22,880 bases of DNA from Candidatus Hermodarchaeota archaeon (lineage in GTDB: Archaea > Asgardarchaeota > Lokiarchaeia > Sigyniarchaeales > SOKP01). The DNA is taken from positions 1 to 22,880 of the forward strand of contig JBHLLG010000046.1 in the NCBI GenBank assembly GCA_048885925.1, read 5' to 3'. The position numbers and the translations under genes were made by a program. Positions 14,995-19,763 of the stretch are shown here, in pieces (the stretch's first letter is position 1; each line of letters opens with the position of its first letter). The notes under the pieces are model-generated. The model searched no databases. It was not told the DNA's origin and worked only from the letters and a program-made list of their open reading frames with translations.

Positions 14995-16881
14995 ATGATT
15001 ATTAAAAAAAAACGTTCTCGTCAAATTCCAGGTATAATTTCGTATATGGAATTATTTTCATCAAAAAAACTAGCTTATTCTATGTTTTTTCTCACACCAG
15101 TTATACTGGGTTTAATTTCTTTGTTGTTTAATTACTTCTTAATAATTAGATATATTGACCTACTTCATTTTATTCGTTTTATTTTTCTTTTTTGGGTTAC
15201 TTCAGGTAGTGGTACTTTTTTTTCCATAGTATTTTATTCAAAAAAAGCGCCTATATTAAGGGCACCACCAAAAGGGTGGACAATTCAAATGAATACCTTT
15301 TTCAGTGTTATAATGGAGATTACATTCATATTTGGTCAGGTTGTCGCAATTCTATTAAATAACATTTGGTTTCAAGAGGTTTTTCTTATTTTAGGGACTA
15401 TCCTTTCATACATTGTTGCATTTGTTATTTATTTTTCATTTACAACAGTGGGACGACCAGGTTATTTAATTTTATCTTTAGTTCAACCTATCGCAGCTAT
15501 AATTCTTTATAGTCTTTATGCTGGAAATTTTGAAATTGATTTTATTATCAAAGCAATGATTTTTTTTGTAGTATGCGCTCTATTATTTGCAGTTCCCTAT
15601 AGAAGAGGTCTATTTCAAGTAAGTAATATTTTTAAAGAAGTAACTGGAATGGGGGGATATCCTTTTATAAGAGCATTTATTCTTTCAATGCTAACTGAAG
15701 GGAATGATGATCTAATTGAAAGTTATTTTGACAAGGTTGGTATAGAATCCGATGCAAAAATCCAATATATTTTTATCCGAAGTGTAAAAACCAAAAAATT
15801 AAAAGGATTTTTTGTTATTCCAAATATTCATTTTGGACCTTTTAAAACTTGTGGCTCATCCGCTTTGCCAGAATATATATACCAAGAATTTAACGAAATT
15901 CCTGGTACTACTGTTTATCATACCACTAATGATCACTCTCAGAATTTAACCACTCAACGATATGTTAAAAAAATAATTAAGAAAATCAAAATAGATGTCA
16001 ATGAGATTAAAACGGATAATGAAATTAAATGGATTAAGGAAGTTAAGGGTTTTACTCGAAAAATTTCTAATTCAGCTAAATTAATTGGTACAGAAATAGG
16101 GAATGTTCCAATTGTGTTTATAACTAGACATCCACTCCCTTCCGATGATATTGAAAAAGATGTCGGAGAGGATATACGAAAGATTGCTTTTTATAACAAT
16201 TATGATGATATAATTGTTATAGATTCTCATAATGCAATTATTGGTGATGAGATTTTAATAAAAAAAGACTCCATCGAGGCAAAAGATTTGATCGACGTTT
16301 CAAAAAAATATATGGAGAGTGAGAACATAAAAAACATTCCAAAAGTTCCAATGTTATATGGGGTAGCAAAGGATAGTTTGAGTGAATATTCTGAAATTCA
16401 AGGGATTGGAGGAGGGGGCCTAGTAATTCATTTATTTAAGAATTCAAAAACTGGACAAAAAACTGTTTTTATACATTTTGATGCTAATAATGCCTATGTA
16501 GATATCAGATCTTATATTCTCAATGAATTGCAAAATAGAGGAATAGAACGAGGAGAAATTACTACATCAGATTCACATACAGTTGCACGCCAATTTTCAG
16601 AGAGAGGTTATTCTCCAATAGGAGATAAAATTAAAATTGATTATATTCTTGAAAAAATAGATACATTAATTAAAATTGCTGAAAAAGATTTAGAGCCAGT
16701 TGAATTTTTTTATAAACATTCAATTGAGAGGGTTAAAATTTGGGGCAACCCTCAGTATTTTAATGCTATACTTGATACACTTAGAGAGTGCCTGAAAGTT
16801 TCTCAAAGTTTATTAACAATAAGTTTAATTGCGCCAACATTCTTTTCATTGATATTATTGATATTTTTATATAATATCTAA
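14995..16881 (+). CDS. DUF2070 family membrane protein (predicted metal-dependent hydrolase-like domain)
   Basis: About 6 N-terminal TM helices, a soluble domain with PNIHFGPF..CGSS.LP, H...DH, SDD, IDSHNA, DANN and TSDSH, and a final TM helix. Confidence 0.88.
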   Translation: MIIKKKRSRQIPGIISYMELFSSKKLAYSMFFLTPVILGLISLLFNYFLIIRYIDLLHFIRFIFLFWVTSGSGTFFSIVFYSKKAPILRAPPKGWTIQMNTFFSVIMEITFIFGQVVAILLNNIWFQEVFLILGTILSYIVAFVIYFSFTTVGRPGYLILSLVQPIAAIILYSLYAGNFEIDFIIKAMIFFVVCALLFAVPYRRGLFQVSNIFKEVTGMGGYPFIRAFILSMLTEGNDDLIESYFDKVGIESDAKIQYIFIRSVKTKKLKGFFVIPNIHFGPFKTCGSSALPEYIYQEFNEIPGTTVYHTTNDHSQNLTTQRYVKKIIKKIKIDVNEIKTDNEIKWIKEVKGFTRKISNSAKLIGTEIGNVPIVFITRHPLPSDDIEKDVGEDIRKIAFYNNYDDIIVIDSHNAIIGDEILIKKDSIEAKDLIDVSKKYMESENIKNIPKVPMLYGVAKDSLSEYSEIQGIGGGGLVIHLFKNSKTGQKTVFIHFDANNAYVDIRSYILNELQNRGIERGEITTSDSHTVARQFSERGYSPIGDKIKIDYILEKIDTLIKIAEKDLEPVEFFYKHSIERVKIWGNPQYFNAILDTLRECLKVSQSLLTISLIAPTFFSLILLIFLYNI

Positions 16882-16984: not shown

Positions 16985-17710
16985 ATGTCAATCAGTCCAT
17001 TAGATATTGTAAATGGAGTTTTTTCTATAATTTTTGTGTTAATCTCTTTATTTGTTGGTTTTATAATACTTTCAAGATACTTTAAATATAAAGAAAGGAT
17101 TTACTTAATGGTGGGCATGACATGGGTATTAATTAGCGAACCATGGTGGCCATCAACCGTATCTTTTTTGATAGCATTAAGTAATGGCGTAGGAATTCCT
17201 TCAGAAGTATACTTTCTAATAGGTAATATTTTTATTCCTCTTGCTGTAATTTTTTGGATGTTAGCCTTTACAGAGTTTTTATATACTGAAAAACGCAAAT
17301 TAATTCTTCTAATTTTTACTATTGTTGGTATAATTTTTGAGATATTATTTTTCACCTTTCTCTTCGTGGATCCAAGTTTAATAGGTGAATTGAATGGTCC
17401 TGTTGACGTAAATTATAATTCTTTTATAATGGTTTTCCTAATTTCATATCTATTAATTGTTGTGATCAGTGGCTTTTTATTTGCTAATCTTTCTCTCAAA
17501 TCTAAAGATTCAGAAGTTAAACTGAAAGGGAAATTATTGATAATTGCTTATATTACTTTTTTAGTTGGAGCATTATTAGACTCAGCAATAACTCTAAATG
17601 AAGTTATAATCATTATTACAAGATTAATTTTAATAACAAGCTCTATTTGTTGGTGGGGAGGATTTCTATTACCTAAATGGATGAAAAGGTATCTTTTAAA
17701 AAAAAGATAA
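16985..17710 (+). CDS. Stand-alone seven-transmembrane protein (sensor/receptor-like, no output domain)
   Basis: Seven hydrophobic segments counted by eye. Basic loops follow TM1, TM3, TM5 and TM7 (suggesting N-out/C-in), and the protein ends GFLLPKWMKR. Confidence 0.8.
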   Translation: MSISPLDIVNGVFSIIFVLISLFVGFIILSRYFKYKERIYLMVGMTWVLISEPWWPSTVSFLIALSNGVGIPSEVYFLIGNIFIPLAVIFWMLAFTEFLYTEKRKLILLIFTIVGIIFEILFFTFLFVDPSLIGELNGPVDVNYNSFIMVFLISYLLIVVISGFLFANLSLKSKDSEVKLKGKLLIIAYITFLVGALLDSAITLNEVIIIITRLILITSSICWWGGFLLPKWMKRYLLKKR

Positions 17711-17838
17711 CTTGTTCTTAATTTATTATTTTTTCCTCATTCATCTATAATATTATTGTAATATTTCTGTATTATTTAGATTCATATTTTCTTTCATATC
17801 TTTTTTTTTTATTAAAACACCTAATTTAATGATATGAA

Positions 17839-18366
17839 ATGTTGAGTTCTGAAATAGATCGCCTGGTAAAAATTACATTTATTGGAGCTCCAGCAGTAGG
17901 AAAAACTACTATGTTGAAGCTTTTGTCTCAACAAACCATAGATCGATTATATATTCCAACACATGGTTTAGATCTAAAAACAATTAAGCTTGATGATTAT
18001 TTTTTACGCGTTTGGGATCTAGCAGGCCAAAGTTCCTATTTAAGGACATATTCAAAAGATTACCTTTTAGGATCAGATATTATTTTTGTAGTTACAGATT
18101 CAACACCAAGAAATGTATTGAATTCAAGGGAATTGATAAACTATGCTTGTCACTTTGTAGGAAGGGATTGTCCTATCATTGCAATTGCTAACAAGCAGGA
18201 TATGGTTAAAAAGGACGGACGAATGGATGCAAAACGGGTTGAAGATGTACTTCATATTAGAACACATGGATTAACAGCAATAAATCCTTCAGAACGAGTA
18301 AAATTGATGAGTATTATTAAAAAGGAATTAGATAAAGTTGCAATTAGGAGGAGACTAAAAGATTGA
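17839..18366 (+). CDS. Ras-superfamily small GTPase (Arf/Rab-like, Asgard type)
   Basis: G1 GAPAVGKTT, G2 YIPTHG, G3 WDLAGQ, G4 ANKQD, G5-like LTAI. No CAAX and no N-terminal myristoylation Gly. Confidence 0.93.
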   Translation: MLSSEIDRLVKITFIGAPAVGKTTMLKLLSQQTIDRLYIPTHGLDLKTIKLDDYFLRVWDLAGQSSYLRTYSKDYLLGSDIIFVVTDSTPRNVLNSRELINYACHFVGRDCPIIAIANKQDMVKKDGRMDAKRVEDVLHIRTHGLTAINPSERVKLMSIIKKELDKVAIRRRLKD

Positions 18367-18920
18367 ATTTTACTGAAAATGAGATATTTGGAGCTGCCTT
18401 AATTGGATTTGATATGATTGATGGCCCTTTCTTAAAATGGAAGAAGGAGTACGAAAAAAATAAGGAGGGCGTAAGTTTAGACGATTTTGCTATGAATTTT
18501 TATTTAGCATTTCGTGGTGGCAATGATTCTGTGAAAAAACCTCGAGCTATATTATATGATAAATTTTATATAGTAGCATTTCCAAGAGATTTAGAACTTT
18601 GTTGCTTATTTATGAAACCAAAAGATCTTGAGAATAATATTAATCAATTGAATAAAATTGCTTCCAGAATAATAACTGAAATGGAGACTGATGAAGATGG
18701 TGGTACAGATACTCAAGATTCTGATGAAAATGCAATTGAAGAAATTGAAAGATTGATTCTGAATTTACTAAATGGAACAAAGATGACAACTCCAGAATTA
18801 CGGCGGTATTTTAAGCTTTCTAACAGTCAAATCTGGAAAATAATGTCAGATCTGGAAAATTCTAAAAAAATTAAACGAGCGGATAAAAAAGGAAGATCAA
18901 TACTTTGGACAGCAATTTGA
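18363..18920 (+). CDS. Longin/uDENN-like domain fused to a C-terminal winged helix-turn-helix
   Basis: TTG start overlaps the GTPase stop (TTGA). N-terminal IFGAALIGFDMIDGP, then a helix, three strands and a helix; acidic linker; then ILNLL...MTTPELRRYFKLSNSQIWKIMSDLE..KKI.R...GRSILW. Confidence 0.75.
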   Translation: MNFTENEIFGAALIGFDMIDGPFLKWKKEYEKNKEGVSLDDFAMNFYLAFRGGNDSVKKPRAILYDKFYIVAFPRDLELCCLFMKPKDLENNINQLNKIASRIITEMETDEDGGTDTQDSDENAIEEIERLILNLLNGTKMTTPELRRYFKLSNSQIWKIMSDLENSKKIKRADKKGRSILWTAI

Positions 18921-18950: not shown

Positions 18951-19763
18951 TCATCTTACTCTATGATCCCACTGTCTTATGTTTTTTGTATAGTACCTTG
19001 AAAACATTAAATAACAAATGTCAGGTAACTCTTCATCTAAATTATTTACAGCAATAAATCTTAGTATATGATTAATCAAGAAAATGCCAACAAATTCTAT
19101 ATGATAACTATCAATATTAATTGAGAGTTTATCGCCTGAAAATGCAATATCTAATCCGGTTTCATCATTCCATGTTATTTCAATGAAAATTTGTGAGAAA
19201 AATTCTTTTTTAATATGCCAATTATTTTCTTCCTTCCATACTTCGACACCGAGAAAAGAAGATAATTTCTCTTGATCTTGAGCTTTTAGGAGGTTAAATG
19301 GAGCACTTCTTTGTTTTAATACTGTCTCCATTAATTCCGTTTTTGTATTAAAATTCTTTTCAAATGGATCGAGTCCTTTAATTTTTCTTTCAATAATATC
19401 TATAACAATATCAATAAATGTAGCCATATCCTCTCCTGGAACCCAGAAAACGCGCTCTCCTGAGAAGTAAAATTTAAATTCAGCTTCAATCCCATCTCCA
19501 AATTCATCTCCGAAATATGAGTAAGATAAATGAATATTTACTTCAGGAAACATCTCGAGAGAAATCGTCCAATCTTCATTGAATCCAATGTTTTCAATTT
19601 TTCCCCCTAATTCATTATATACGATATTTTTCAATACATTCCTATCTAAATCTGTAAAAAGATGAACGTTCATTTTACTTATATCTTCAAGCTCTTTCTC
19701 ATGCGGTCCACGTACACCTGTAGCATCAATTTGTCCTATCGTCCAAAATTTGCTTTGGTGCAT
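18951..19763 (-). CDS. Hypothetical protein with two tandem DUF3786-like alpha/beta repeats
   Basis: Repeat 1: LGG....DWTISLEMFPEVNIHL....GDEF....EFKFYFSGE....GED. Repeat 2: LGV....NWHIKKEFFSQIFIEITW....LDIAFSGD. The family call is from recalled pattern only. Confidence 0.65.
   Translation of the reverse strand: MHQSKFWTIGQIDATGVRGPHEKELEDISKMNVHLFTDLDRNVLKNIVYNELGGKIENIGFNEDWTISLEMFPEVNIHLSYSYFGDEFGDGIEAEFKFYFSGERVFWVPGEDMATFIDIVIDIIERKIKGLDPFEKNFNTKTELMETVLKQRSAPFNLLKAQDQEKLSSFLGVEVWKEENNWHIKKEFFSQIFIEITWNDETGLDIAFSGDKLSINIDSYHIEFVGIFLINHILRFIAVNNLDEELPDICYLMFSRYYTKNIRQWDHRVR

What the first reader, a model, noticed from the sequence alone, without database searches (positions are those of the whole stretch)
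16985..18920. Candidate Asgard membrane-to-DNA signalling module: 7TM protein + small GTPase + longin-wHTH
Seen: three co-oriented genes encoding an output-less 7TM protein, a small GTPase with intact G1-G4, and a partner translationally coupled to it by a TTGA overlap. Known: longin/uDENN domains are the GTPase-binding platforms of eukaryotic GEF/GAP complexes (DENN, TRAPP, Mon1-Ccz1, FLCN, NPRL2), and Asgard genomes encode many small GTPases and longins. Inference: the 7TM protein could sense a ligand and switch the GTPase, with the longin-wHTH protein as a GTPase-controlled DNA-binding effector, a GPCR-like logic built from pre-eukaryotic parts. Caveat: 128 bp with a T10 tract (17801-17810) separates the 7TM gene from the GTPase, so its membership is the weakest link.
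Basis: partly seen in the sequence, partly recalled or inferred. Interest (0 to 1): 0.85.

Follow-up and report, generated by a model that had tools for sequence, protein, structure and literature searches.

The report
Asgard GTPase paired with longin-wHTH partner
An Arf-like small GTPase gene in an Asgard archaeon is always fused into one tight operon with an unannotated protein that joins a longin-like GTPase-platform domain to a DNA-binding winged helix, whereas the neighbouring 7TM membrane gene is just a local neighbour.

Summary
The interpretation splits.

Supported: the GTPase and the 185-aa downstream protein form a conserved two-gene unit. All 41 full-length orthologues examined, across three taxonomic depths, lie directly downstream of the orthologous GTPase, and most junctions overlap by 4 nt. 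The partner has a longin-order alpha/beta N-domain with an invariant (F/M)D-x3-GP motif (49 of 49), an acidic linker and a confident wHTH. It has no Pfam family, and every named relative listed is "hypothetical". The complex prediction gives weak support only (0.45 against 0.01).

Not supported: 7TM membership.
- It is syntenic only within the genus.
- It is unlinked in other families.
- It belongs to a multi-copy family whose other copies are not near GTPases (0 of 4).
- In two genomes an opposite-strand gene separates it from the GTPase.
- A genome-unique conserved 31-nt element and a TATA-like block lie between it and the GTPase.

Best reading: a GTPase/GAP-type-longin switch wired to DNA binding, probably autoregulated. 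It is a new variant of a known kind.

The parts
16985..17710 (+). 7TM membrane protein (241 aa). It is a neighbour and is judged NOT to be part of the module.
   Evidence: ORF; hydropathy and positive-inside pattern; no Pfam or NCBIfam family. It belongs to a multi-copy family: 5 copies in this genome and 2-7 per same-genus genome. It is syntenic with the GTPase only within the genus.
17729..17734 (+). T6 run shortly after the 7TM stop codon; a candidate archaeal oligo-T terminator for the 7TM gene (inference).
   Evidence: Sequence. Most same-genus loci show a T-run of 8-10 nt at the corresponding place, just upstream of the conserved block. That oligo-T tracts terminate archaeal transcription is recalled general knowledge.
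17758..17788 (+). Conserved 31-nt non-coding block containing an imperfect inverted repeat (TAATA ... TATTA) followed by AGATTCATATT; a candidate operator or upstream promoter element of the GTPase operon.
   Evidence: It is near-invariant in the alignment of 19 same-genus upstream regions, while the flanking spacer drifts. The 11-mer is visible with at most 2 mismatches in all 23 same-genus loci printed. The degenerate 30-nt pattern has one hit in the 3.9-Mb genome at up to 1 mismatch, and that hit is this site.
17805..17819 (+). T/A-rich conserved block (it includes the end of the T10 tract and TTATTAAAA) centred about 26 nt before the ATG; a candidate TATA box of the GTPase operon's own promoter (inference).
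   Evidence: Conserved columns T106-A120 of alignment A4. The spacing rule for archaeal TATA boxes is recalled knowledge, and no transcription start site data exist.
17839..18366 (+). Arf-like small GTPase (175 aa), basic (pI 9.5), with no Gly2 and no C-terminal lipidation motif.
   Evidence: Pfam Arf, Roc and Ras above cut-off. The best solved relatives are Arl3, Arl2, Rab1 and Arf1 (E 3e-14 to 1e-10). G1-G4 are invariant in 18 orthologues. pI and termini.
18347..18354 (+). Purine-rich GGAGGAGA inside the 3' end of the GTPase gene, 9-16 nt before the TTG start; a Shine-Dalgarno-like site for coupled translation.
   Evidence: Sequence. GGAGG-like motifs occupy the same place in nearly all same-genus loci and in many distant ones.
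18363..18695 (+). N-domain of the partner protein (residues 1-111): longin-order alpha/beta fold (b1-b2-a1-b3-b4-b5-a2), acidic (pI 4.9).
   Evidence: AlphaFold2 model from 29 sequences, with N-domain block pLDDT 61-89. Foldseek neighbours include AP-3 with Arf1, MK-D1 Roadblock2, LAMTOR subunits, DENND1A with Rab35 and the TRAPP core, at E 3e-3 to 2e-2. No Pfam hit in any of 29 members.
18408..18428 (+). F16-D17-x3-G21-P22 motif at the b1-b2 turn and the start of b2.
   Evidence: (F/M)D-x3-GP is present in 49 of 49 family members. It is absent from 14 Roadblock ORFs and 2 longin ORFs of the same genome, and it occurs in 8 of 5719 ORFs genome-wide. It has the same position and spacing as C9orf72 W33-D34 / G38-P39, as given in PMC12290439.
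18696..18722 (+). Acidic, sequence-variable linker (about residues 106-128; low-confidence part 111-119).
   Evidence: 7-12 D/E and 0-2 K/R in all 14 orthologues, although the sequence is not conserved. pLDDT is below 50 at residues 111-119.
18723..18920 (+). C-terminal winged helix-turn-helix (residues 121-185), basic (pI 9.7), with conserved K/R in the wing (R172, K175, R178).
   Evidence: Model block pLDDT 73-88. Foldseek matches to ArsR/SmtB repressors (SrnR, SqrR, HlyU, CzrA) at rmsd 1.0-1.7 A over 55-58 columns. Distant family members pass the Pfam cut-offs for HTH_DeoR, HTH_11, HTH_5 and HTH_24. Basic columns.

Best explanation
The functional unit is a two-gene operon, not three genes. 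It encodes an Arf-like small GTPase (17839-18366) and, translationally coupled to it, a 185-aa partner (18363-18920). The partner joins a longin-like, GP-motif N-domain to a DNA-binding winged helix through an acidic linker.

Proposed mechanism, with each step marked:
(a) The two proteins are made together in fixed proportion. This is shown by the overlapping genes.
(b) The N-domain docks on the GTPase as longin and Roadblock platforms do, using the invariant (F/M)D-x3-GP turn. This is inferred. It is supported by the universal gene linkage and by a weak-support complex prediction.
(c) The N-domain acts on, or reads, the nucleotide state, most likely as a GAP-type longin. This is inferred from the motif only.
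(d) The nucleotide state of the bound GTPase gates DNA binding by the basic wHTH. The acidic linker may act as an autoinhibitory element. This is inferred.
(e) One DNA target is the conserved, genome-unique inverted-repeat block upstream of the operon, which would give autoregulation. This is inferred from conservation.

The 7TM gene upstream is an unrelated neighbour whose position is kept only by genus-level collinearity.

My sub-estimates are: the two proteins bind, about 0.75; the wHTH binds DNA, about 0.55; the N-domain has GAP-type activity, about 0.35; the 7TM gene is not part of the module, about 0.9.
For: Linkage: the partner lies immediately downstream of the orthologous GTPase, co-oriented, in 22 of 22 same-genus loci and 13 of 13 loci from three other families of the order, and in 6 of 6 full-length forms from other classes. 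That is 41 of 41.

Junction: of 43 loci, 29 overlap (mostly by 4 nt, ATGA or TTGA), 11 have 0-5 nt, and 3 have 10-49 nt. This is, with L029 and L030 corrected. A GGAGG-like site lies upstream of the downstream start.

Fold: mean pLDDT 78.5, longin element order, confident wHTH. Foldseek returns GTPase-platform proteins for the N-domain and ArsR/SmtB repressors for the C-domain.

wHTH: relatives P0127-P0129 pass the Pfam cut-offs (for example HTH_DeoR at 31.7 bits against 21, and HTH_11 at 32.6 against 25).

Motif: (F/M)D-x3-GP occurs in 49 of 49 members and in none of the 16 Roadblock or longin ORFs of the same genome. PMC12290439 (passages) reports a GP motif at this position as specific to the GAP longins C9orf72, SMCR8, FLCN and NPRL2, whose clients are Arf and Rag GTPases.

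Complex prediction: verdict 'weak support'. The score is 0.45 (runs 0.68, 0.36, 0.45) and the best of 3 controls is 0.01. The mark was reached by 58 of 80 solved complexes and 2 of 110 mismatched pairs, but at 0.60 or under by only 7 of those 80 and by both mismatches that passed. The runs agree in at least 41% of contacts, and the partner's pLDDT is at least 73. My own alignments and a riding GTP and Mg differ from the calibration.

Cis-element: the conserved 31-nt block at 17758-17788 is unique in the genome. A TA[AT]TATC half-site lies within 200 nt upstream of the GTPase in 11 of 20 distant loci against 2.8 expected. With one locus per genus the figures are 7 of 14 against 2.0, P about 0.001.

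7TM exclusion.
Against: - No experiment and no expression data exist for this locus.
- The complex score is in the band where, by the tool's own calibration, a pass is more often wrong than right unless the guess was likely beforehand. Solved GTPase-longin and GTPase-Roadblock complexes exist, so the pass may partly reflect memory of such complexes.
- The N-domain matches no longin or Roadblock family by sequence. There is no Pfam hit in 29 members. It is absent from the genome's Robl_LC7, Longin and NPR2 hit lists. hhalign against the genome's own Roadblock proteins gives probability 0.1%.
- No Foldseek hit reaches E<=0.001, and FLCN, SMCR8, C9orf72 and NPRL2 are not among the 50 listed.
- No invariant arginine exists in the N-domain. 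The only nearly invariant basic residue there is K/R25, at 93%.
- Standalone N-domain forms are next to the GTPase in only 1 of 14 loci. The N-domain by itself therefore does not enforce linkage.
- The half-site word was defined after I had looked at the sequences, and related genomes are not independent.
- wHTH domains can also mediate protein-protein contacts.
- The window protein's own HTH hits are below Pfam cut-off (HTH_27 at 15.5 bits against 22.2).
Confidence: 0.55

Rival explanations
1. The partner is purely a GTPase regulator (a GAP or GEF platform like MglB, C9orf72-SMCR8 or NPRL2-NPRL3). Its winged helix serves dimerisation or protein-protein contacts and does not bind DNA, as the WH repeats of NPRL2 and NPRL3 do in GATOR1.
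For: The GP motif sits at the GAP-longin position. A longin domain followed by wHTH repeats is the NPRL2/NPRL3 architecture (PMC3747258, passage). The window protein's own HTH hits are below Pfam cut-off. The gene linkage is explained equally well.
Against: The closest structural matches of the C-domain are DNA-binding ArsR/SmtB repressors, at rmsd 1.0-1.7 A. Relatives pass the cut-offs of DNA-binding HTH families. The domain is basic (pI 9.7) with conserved K/R in the wing. A conserved, genome-unique inverted-repeat element sits upstream of the operon.
Confidence: 0.22
2. One reading: the 7TM protein senses a ligand and switches the GTPase, which controls the longin-wHTH effector. This would be a three-part, GPCR-like membrane-to-DNA module.
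For: The genes are co-oriented, and the 7TM gene lies upstream of the GTPase in all 22 same-genus genomes: within about 130-330 bp in 20 of them and 1.4-1.9 kb away in 2. The predicted N-out/C-in 7TM topology fits. An actinobacterial precedent exists for a membrane sensor working with a Roadblock protein, an HTH protein and a GTPase (the conservon).
Against: No membrane gene lies next to the pair in any of 13 other-family loci, and no 7TM gene was noted in the 6 other-class loci. 7TM homologues are unlinked there: 166 kb or 1.4 Mb away, or on other contigs. None of the 4 paralogues in this genome is near a GTPase. Opposite-strand genes are inserted between the 7TM gene and the GTPase in G007 and G023, while the conserved upstream block stays with the GTPase. 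The whole DUF2070-7TM-GTPase-partner-p270-RsmB block is collinear in the genus, so adjacency at that depth carries little information. The GTPase has no lipidation or amphipathic N-terminus that would take it to a membrane.
Confidence: 0.06
3. The two proteins do not touch. The wHTH protein is simply a local transcription factor co-transcribed with the gene it regulates, and its N-domain senses a small molecule, as the GAF domain does in CodY. It would not sense the GTPase.
For: CodY (a sensor domain plus a wHTH) appears among the Foldseek hits to the whole model. Standalone N-domain forms are mostly not next to a GTPase (1 of 14). The complex support is only weak.
Against: Translational coupling with 4-nt overlaps is kept across classes. 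That pattern is typical of subunits needed in fixed proportion (general knowledge). The linkage is to one specific GTPase orthologue out of about 36-55 small GTPases per genome. The N-domain's structural neighbours are GTPase platforms. The controls in the complex job scored 0.00-0.01 against 0.36-0.68.
Confidence: 0.12

Closest known systems
Eukaryotic longin-domain GAP subunits (C9orf72-SMCR8 for Arf; FLCN-FNIP and NPRL2-NPRL3/GATOR1 for Rag) and the 'GP-motif' Asgard longins of PMC12290439
   Same: The N-terminal longin-order fold. A Gly-Pro at the end of the b1-b2 loop or the start of b2, preceded four residues earlier by an aromatic-Asp pair, as in C9orf72 W33-D34 / G38-P39. NPRL2 and NPRL3 also carry wHTH repeats after the longin domain (PMC3747258). 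The client here is an Arf/Arl-like GTPase.
   Different: There is no sequence-detectable homology (no NPR2 or other longin Pfam hit). There is no invariant arginine finger. The protein has a single wHTH and no DENN or NPRL-specific domains, is only 185 aa long, and is encoded in an operon with its GTPase. These proteins were not among the 50 listed Foldseek hits. I could not see Data S1 of PMC12290439, so I cannot tell whether this family is among its 15 Asgard longins.
Actinobacterial G protein systems (conservons: CvnA-D / MfpB-E)
   Same: A prokaryotic operon that links a Ras-superfamily GTPase to an alpha/beta platform protein (Roadblock/MglB-type GAP) and an HTH-containing protein. The HTH protein, DUF742/MfpC, was shown to be a GEF and is suggested as a possible effector. 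These systems have been proposed as analogues of G-protein-coupled signalling (passages and abstracts).
   Different: Here the platform and the HTH are fused in one chain. There is no histidine-kinase partner. The GTPase is Arf-like with a DxxGQ G3 motif, not MglA-like. There is no Robl_LC7 or DUF742 match. The lineage is Asgard archaea, not Actinomycetota.
MglA-MglB (bacterial polarity switch) and archaeal or Asgard Roadblock proteins (for example MK-D1 Roadblock2, PDB 9jq8)
   Same: A small GTPase with an adjacent gene for a small alpha/beta platform. MK-D1 Roadblock2 is among the structural neighbours.
   Different: The element order is longin-type, with no N-terminal helix. hhalign probability against the genome's own Roadblock proteins is 0.1%. 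MglB has no DNA-binding domain. Tran et al. state that MK-D1 GTPase genes do not generally lie in operons with Roadblock, longin or TRAPPC3 genes (PMC10933270, passage), so this pair is an exception.
ArsR/SmtB- and DeoR-type wHTH transcription factors
   Same: The C-terminal three-helix bundle plus beta-hairpin wing. The rmsd is 1.0-1.7 A to SrnR, SqrR, HlyU and CzrA. Distant family members pass the HTH_5, HTH_DeoR and HTH_11 cut-offs.
   Different: There are no metal- or effector-binding helices, and the sensor module is a longin-like domain. The window protein itself scores below the Pfam cut-offs.

Membership tests
Ras-superfamily small GTPase, Arf family (PF00025) | G1 GxxxxGK[ST], G2 Thr, G3 DxxGQ and G4 NKxD motifs | tested here: met
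   GAPAVGKT 16-23, T41, D60-G63-Q64 and N118-K-Q-D121, all invariant in 18 orthologues.
Ras-superfamily small GTPase, Arf family (PF00025) | Profile score above the curated cut-off | tested here: met
   Arf 64.5 bits against a cut-off of 22.3. Roc (54.5) and Ras (46.2) also pass, so the subfamily assignment is soft. The best solved relatives are Arl3 and Arl2.
Ras-superfamily small GTPase, Arf family (PF00025) | N-terminal amphipathic helix with myristoylated Gly2 (canonical Arf; recalled feature) | tested here: not met
   The N-terminus reads MLSSEIDRLVK, with only about 10 residues before b1 and no Gly2. The protein is Arf-like, not a canonical Arf.
Longin domain | Element order b1-b2-a1-b3-b4-b5-a2(-a3) with no N-terminal helix (as described in PMC10933270) | tested here: met
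   Model: E8-17, E21-29, H39-51, E62-64, E69-75, E78-84, H89-111. A distinct a3 is not seen. Model confidence in this domain is moderate (block pLDDT 61-89).
Longin domain | Sequence-profile membership (Pfam Longin, Fuz_longin, NPR2 and related families) | tested here: not met
   No such hit in 29 members at E<=10. The locus is absent from the genome's PF13774 and PF06218 hit lists.
Longin domain | Structural similarity to solved longin domains | tested here: inconclusive
   Foldseek hits to the AP-3 chain, DENND1A, TRAPP and COPI, but also to Roadblock/LAMTOR proteins, all at E 3e-3 to 2e-2 and none at or below 1e-3. The query was the two-domain model.
GAP-type longins (C9orf72 / SMCR8 / FLCN / NPRL2) | GP motif at the end of the b1-b2 loop or the start of b2 (PMC12290439) | tested here: met
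   G21-P22 is invariant. (F/M)D-x3-GP occurs in 49 of 49 members and in none of the 16 other Roadblock or longin ORFs of the genome.
GAP-type longins (C9orf72 / SMCR8 / FLCN / NPRL2) | Catalytic arginine finger next to the GP motif | tested here: inconclusive
   There is no invariant Arg in the N-domain. K/R25 is at 93%, R/K75 at 79% and R/K51 at 72%. In the CSW complex the arginine comes from the partner subunit, so absence is not decisive. Activity was not tested.
Roadblock/LC7 (MglB-like) | Robl_LC7 profile match and an N-terminal helix before b1 | tested here: not met
   The locus is not among the 21 PF03259 hits in the genome. hhalign probability is 0.1%. The model has no N-terminal helix.
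Winged helix-turn-helix DNA-binding domain | Three helices plus a beta-hairpin wing; profile membership | tested here: met
   H121-136, H143-147, H154-166 and wing E170-176/E179-184 at block pLDDT 73-88. ArsR/SmtB matches at rmsd 1.0-1.7 A. Relatives P0127-P0129 are above the Pfam cut-offs. The window protein itself is below cut-off. DNA binding was not tested.
Actinobacterial conservon (AGPS) | Sensor histidine kinase, Robl_LC7 protein, DUF742 protein and MglA-type GTPase in one operon | tested here: not met
   There is no kinase in the window ORFs around the pair. There are no Robl_LC7 or DUF742 hits. The GTPase is Arf-like.
   0 of 13 other-family loci. Homologues are unlinked. 0 of 4 paralogues are near a GTPase.

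The most novel reading that the evidence does not exclude
This operon is a direct GTPase-to-DNA switch and a minimal archaeal counterpart of the eukaryotic longin GAP complexes. On this reading a GP-motif longin, of the same class as C9orf72, SMCR8, FLCN and NPRL2, is matched by operon structure to its client, an Arf-like GTPase. Instead of acting on membranes, it transmits the nucleotide state to a winged helix that binds a dedicated operator. This would answer the open question raised in PMC12290439 of which Asgard GTPases partner with the GP-motif longins. It would also imply that longin-plus-WH regulators of Arf/Rag-type GTPases began as transcription-coupled switches before they were recruited to endomembranes.
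Probability: 0.2. Interest if true: 0.85.

Novelty: new variant of a known kind. Interest (0 to 1): 0.62.

Why it matters
Asgard genomes encode dozens of small GTPases and dozens of longin and Roadblock proteins. Who pairs with whom is largely unknown, however. Tran et al. 2024 state that operon structure generally does not help in MK-D1. The 2025 longin-GAP study explicitly asks which Asgard GTPases serve the GP-motif longins.

This locus offers one GTPase-partner pair fixed by an overlapping operon across several Asgard classes, and each member is small enough (175 and 185 aa) for direct biochemistry. If the partner binds DNA under GTPase control, it would be a GTPase-gated transcription factor in archaea. 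It would also link a eukaryote-type GTPase regulator fold to prokaryote-style gene regulation.

Showing that the 7TM gene is only a neighbour is also useful, because it removes a tempting but unsupported 'archaeal GPCR' story.

Tried and rejected
- **7TM as part of the module:** rejected on synteny, paralogue neighbourhoods, inserted opposite-strand genes and the intervening conserved regulatory DNA.
- **Roadblock/MglB identity of the N-domain:** rejected.
- **Paralogues of the N-domain in the genome:** none found. The HMM's next-best ORF scores E 0.27.
- **Defence-system identity:** PADLOC gave only P-loop-level and weak wHTH-level hits, E 2e-3 to 4e-3.
- **Sigma-70 promoter and intrinsic-terminator scan:** not applicable to an archaeon. 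It found 17 promoter-like sites against 14.6 expected and 0 terminators, so I ignored it.
- **The 11-mer AGATTCATATT alone:** not enriched in the window, with 5 matches against 3.3 expected at 1 mismatch or fewer. Only the full block is specific.
- **My by-eye guess of a helix-hairpin-helix in P0138 and P0141:** no Pfam support, so dropped.
- **ESM Atlas:** for the 7TM protein, only unnamed Promethearchaeota clusters, with HisKA_7TM at 10% of members and a score of 0.87 as a lead only. For the N-domain, the best named lead was 0.77, to a cluster in which 19% of members carry NPR2. Both are below the tool's reliability mark and I used them as leads only.
- **PDB sequence search with the family profile:** only weak HTH hits at E 0.24 or above, and no longin.
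- **RNA evidence:** no RNA holder listed. This says nothing about expression.
- **First background control for the half-site:** too lenient, because its windows were mostly coding DNA. I replaced it with dinucleotide shuffles and one locus per genus.
- **Literature searches for a described GTPase plus longin-wHTH pair:** and the passages read show none. Supplementary tables were not visible and may list the family. These are the asCOG tables of Liu et al. and Data S1 of PMC12290439.

Full report
**1. What is there.** The window is contig C46 of a 3.9-Mb, 181-contig genome. Window GC is about 25-33%. The genome carries 55 small-GTPase matches. Close relatives of its proteins are labelled Promethearchaeota or other Asgard MAGs.

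- a 241-aa hydrophobic protein (16985-17710);
- a 175-aa GTPase (17839-18366);
- a 185-aa protein (18363-18920) whose TTG start overlaps the GTPase's TGA stop.

The GTPase passes the Pfam Arf, Roc and Ras cut-offs. It is closest to Arl3, Arl2, Rab1 and Arf1 among solved structures. Its G1-G4 motifs are invariant in 18 orthologues. The membrane protein has no family, and its hydropathy and charge pattern fit seven helices with an N-out/C-in topology. The downstream protein has only sub-threshold wHTH hits.

**2. The GTPase-partner pair is a conserved unit.** A search with the GTPase found clear orthologues (75-86% identity) in 22 of 23 other same-genus genomes. The exception is G021, which is 81% complete and whose best hit is 37% identical. 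It also found 40-48% identical best hits in 13 of 16 genomes from three other families of the order.

I ran tblastn with six window proteins against the 37 loci held at that point. The partner is adjacent to the GTPase and co-oriented with it in 22 of 22 same-genus loci and 13 of 13 other-family loci. It is conserved at least as well as the GTPase (42-56% against 38-46% identity).

A profile scan of 300 genomes sampled across the phylum found the family in 92. I fetched the 20 most distant loci. All 6 full-length forms from other classes have the orthologous GTPase immediately upstream. That makes 41 of 41 full-length forms examined.

Junctions are tight. Of 43 loci, 29 overlap (mostly by 4 nt), 11 have 0-5 nt and 3 have 10-49 nt (with L029 and L030 corrected). 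A GGAGG-like motif lies 9-16 nt before the downstream start. The partner is single-copy in this genome.

A result against a simple reading is that shorter family members consisting of the N-domain alone (about 110-150 aa) are next to the GTPase in only 1 of 14 loci. Their neighbours include a Fuz_longin_1-like protein or a PF0610-type wHTH plus zinc-ribbon protein.

**3. What the partner is.** It is an unannotated family:
- The word-indexed search found 493 relatives at E<=0.001. Among the 120 listed, every named one is 'hypothetical protein' and none has a precomputed Pfam domain.
- A profile search that read all 1.84 billion representatives found only 33 clusters.

A 14-sequence alignment shows two conserved domains joined by a variable acidic linker. 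AlphaFold2 on 14 sequences gave mean pLDDT 71. On 29 sequences it gave 78.5.

The N-domain elements run b1-b2-a1-b3-b4-b5-a2. That is the longin order, without the N-terminal helix of Roadblock proteins (as described in PMC10933270). The C-domain is a three-helix winged helix.

Foldseek against the PDB gave no hit at E<=0.001, but it returned two coherent sets:
- ArsR/SmtB and MarR repressors for the C-domain, at rmsd 1.0-1.7 A over 55-58 columns;
- GTPase-platform proteins for the N-domain: an AP-3 chain bound to Arf1, MK-D1 Roadblock2, LAMTOR subunits, DENND1A bound to Rab35, the TRAPP core and COPI.

Distant full-length relatives pass the Pfam cut-offs for HTH_DeoR, HTH_11, HTH_5 and HTH_24.

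By sequence the N-domain belongs to no known family. No Pfam hit appears in 29 members. The locus is not among the genome's 21 Robl_LC7 matches, 2 Longin matches or 0 NPR2 matches. It has no paralogue by HMM, and hhalign probability against the genome's own Roadblock proteins is 0.1%.

**4. The GP motif.** The most conserved feature of the N-domain is (F/M)D-x3-GP at the b1-b2 turn. It is present in 49 of 49 family members. It is absent from the 14 Roadblock ORFs and 2 longin ORFs of the same genome, and it occurs in 8 of 5719 ORFs genome-wide.

PMC12290439 (passages) reports a 'GP motif' at exactly this structural position. The paper says it is specific to the catalytic longins of the eukaryotic GAP complexes (C9orf72, SMCR8, FLCN, NPRL2) and to a class of Asgard longins, and absent from adaptin, TRAPP and DENND longins. 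In C9orf72 the essential W33-D34 precedes G38-P39 with the same spacing as F16-D17 and G21-P22 here. Those complexes act on Arf and Rag GTPases, and the paper asks which Asgard GTPases are the partners of GP-motif longins.

NPRL2 and NPRL3 also carry wHTH repeats after their longin domain (PMC3747258).

This is a resemblance of motif and architecture, not demonstrated homology. No invariant arginine exists in the N-domain (K/R25 is at 93%), and these proteins were not among the 50 Foldseek hits listed.

**5. Do the two proteins bind?** The one complex job used the GTPase alignment, the partner alignment, GTP and Mg. It returned 'weak support':
- score 0.45 (runs 0.68, 0.36, 0.45), against a best of 3 controls of 0.01;
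- the mark was reached by 58 of 80 solved complexes and 2 of 110 mismatched pairs;
- at 0.60 or under it was reached by only 7 of those 80 and by both mismatches that passed;
- the runs agree in at least 41% of contacts, and the partner's pLDDT is at least 73.

The job differs from the calibration, because it used my own alignments and carried ligands. Similar GTPase-platform complexes have been solved, so some of the score may be memory of those. Taken with the invariant overlapping operon, I put binding at about 0.75.

**6. The 7TM gene is a neighbour, not a member.**
- The whole DUF2070-7TM-GTPase-partner-p270-RsmB block is collinear across the genus, so adjacency at that depth says little.
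- Outside the genus, no 7TM or other membrane gene flanks the pair in any of 13 loci. A divergent Cys-rich gene of about 260-280 aa recurs there instead.
- The 7TM protein belongs to a multi-copy family: 5 copies in this genome and 2-7 per same-genus genome. Its homologues in other families lie 166 kb away (G029), 1.4 Mb away (G031) or on other contigs.
- None of the other 4 copies in this genome is near a GTPase.
- In G007 and G023 the 7TM gene is 1.9 and 1.4 kb upstream, with an opposite-strand gene in between: an LRR protein and another small GTPase respectively.

**7. Conserved non-coding DNA.** I aligned the upstream regions of 19 of the 23 same-genus loci. I left out L003, L010, L018 and L035 because their offsets differ, although the block is visible in all 23.

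The alignment shows a near-invariant 31-nt block at window 17758-17788. It consists of an imperfect inverted repeat followed by AGATTCATATT, and the spacer around it drifts. A second conserved T/A-rich block lies at about 17805-17819, centred about 26 nt before the ATG. A T-run usually precedes the first block.

The degenerate 30-nt pattern hits the 3.9-Mb genome once, at this site. It is therefore a dedicated cis-element and not a general promoter word.

A related half-site, TA[AT]TATC, occurs within 200 nt upstream of the GTPase in 11 of 20 distant loci. Dinucleotide shuffles predict 2.8. With one locus per genus the figures are 7 of 14 against 2.0, P about 0.001. I defined the word after seeing the data, so this is suggestive only.

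I infer that the GTPase operon has its own promoter and an operator. The operon's own wHTH protein is the obvious candidate to bind that operator.

**8. Mechanism proposed.**
- Shown: co-translation from overlapping genes; a basic GTPase (pI 9.5); and a partner with an acidic N-domain (pI 4.9), an acidic linker (7-12 D/E and 0-2 K/R in all 14 orthologues) and a basic wHTH (pI 9.7).
- Inferred: the GP-motif face of the N-domain docks on the switch region of the GTPase. It reads or accelerates the GTP/GDP cycle, and this gates DNA binding by the wHTH. The acidic linker may act as an autoinhibitory element. One target would be the upstream block, which would give autoregulation.

The closest functional analogue among prokaryotes is the actinobacterial conservon: a sensor kinase, a Roadblock GAP, the HTH-containing DUF742 GEF and a Ras-like GTPase. 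Every membership feature of that system fails here.

**9. Limits.**
- There are no expression data, and no experiment exists.
- N-domain confidence in the model is moderate.
- A domain-only structural search was not possible.
- Supplementary files that might list this family could not be read.

**10. Verdict.** The novelty class is a new variant of a known kind: a GTPase with a longin-type platform, here fused to a wHTH and fixed in an operon. Interest is 0.62.

Noticed in passing
window 16985-17710; G000 C65:11329-12054, C15:31-633, C1:16293-16997, C10:59587-60261: The 7TM protein is one of five paralogues in this genome. Its family has 2-7 copies per same-genus genome and weaker relatives across the order. 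It has no Pfam family. The nearest named Atlas lead is HisKA_7TM, at 10% of a cluster's members and a score of 0.87.
   Followed up: partly
L024:5777-6559, L026:4020-4835, L027:1233-2075, L028:4097-4918, L029:163-945, L030:5616-6392, L031:1353-2123 (also L021:3534-4427): In other families of the order, a Cys-rich protein of about 260-280 aa (motif GPNC-x-DP-x2-CHGDCCF) is encoded divergently from the GTPase operon and shares its upstream region. The two copies tested have no Pfam hit. It could be a co-regulated partner.
   Followed up: partly
L055:2987-3382; proteins P0139, P0145; L054:3015-3353: Some N-domain-only family members end in a polybasic tail. L055 has a run of ten Arg and is the one standalone form that keeps the GTPase upstream. 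The tail could replace the wHTH as a nucleic-acid- or membrane-binding element.
   Followed up: no
proteins P0138, P0141: The same N-domain is fused to a different C-terminal domain of about 80 aa with no Pfam match, so the output domain has been swapped.
   Followed up: partly
L063:3740-4171, L064:3689-4120, L065:3636-4067: In family f23 the standalone N-domain gene sits divergently next to a 143-aa Fuz_longin_1-like protein (24.5 bits, cut-off 26.1). This hints at a heterodimeric longin pair.
   Followed up: partly
L054:2529-2852, L056:2224-2541, L055:3928-4269: In families f19 and f13 the standalone N-domain gene is next to a divergent wHTH plus zinc-ribbon regulator of about 105-113 aa. 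The one copy tested (L054) hits PF0610-like_N at 48.2 bits and Zn_ribbon_PF0610 at 54.4 bits. This may be a split version of the platform-plus-HTH arrangement.
   Followed up: partly
window 18951-19763 (-): A 270-aa protein convergent with the operon is conserved in position and sequence (65-77% identity) across nearly all same-genus loci. It is single-copy and has no Pfam, NCBIfam or PADLOC family.
   Followed up: no
window 17884-17907 (GTPase residues 16-23): The P-loop reads GAPAVGKT. Pro18 and Ala19 are invariant in 18 orthologues, at the positions I recall as Ras Gly12 and Gly13. This is an unusual P-loop and may constrain how a GAP can insert a catalytic residue (the Ras numbering is recalled).
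   Followed up: no
L015:3-1319 (G007); L019:276-833 (G023): Lineage-specific insertions lie between the 7TM gene and the GTPase. G007 has an LRR protein with a weak TIR-like C-terminus (LRR_8 92.5 bits; TIR_2 17.6 bits, below cut-off). G023 has an additional Rab/Ras-like GTPase.
   Followed up: partly
proteins P0144 (1617 aa) and P0151 (587 aa): Two long proteins match a short part of the N-domain profile (positions about 41-105) in 11 and 8 repeated stretches. They could be repeat proteins built from this element, or a compositional artefact.
   Followed up: no
protein list: Proteins 76-92% identical to the window's partner carry NCBI MAG labels from several different Asgard candidate phyla (Odin-, Hod-, Thor-, Hermod-, Lokiarchaeota and Promethearchaeota). 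This suggests inconsistent taxonomic labelling of these MAGs.
   Followed up: no
window 14995-16881: A 628-aa DUF2070 membrane protein (281 bits) lies upstream of the 7TM gene and is collinear with it across the genus.
   Followed up: no
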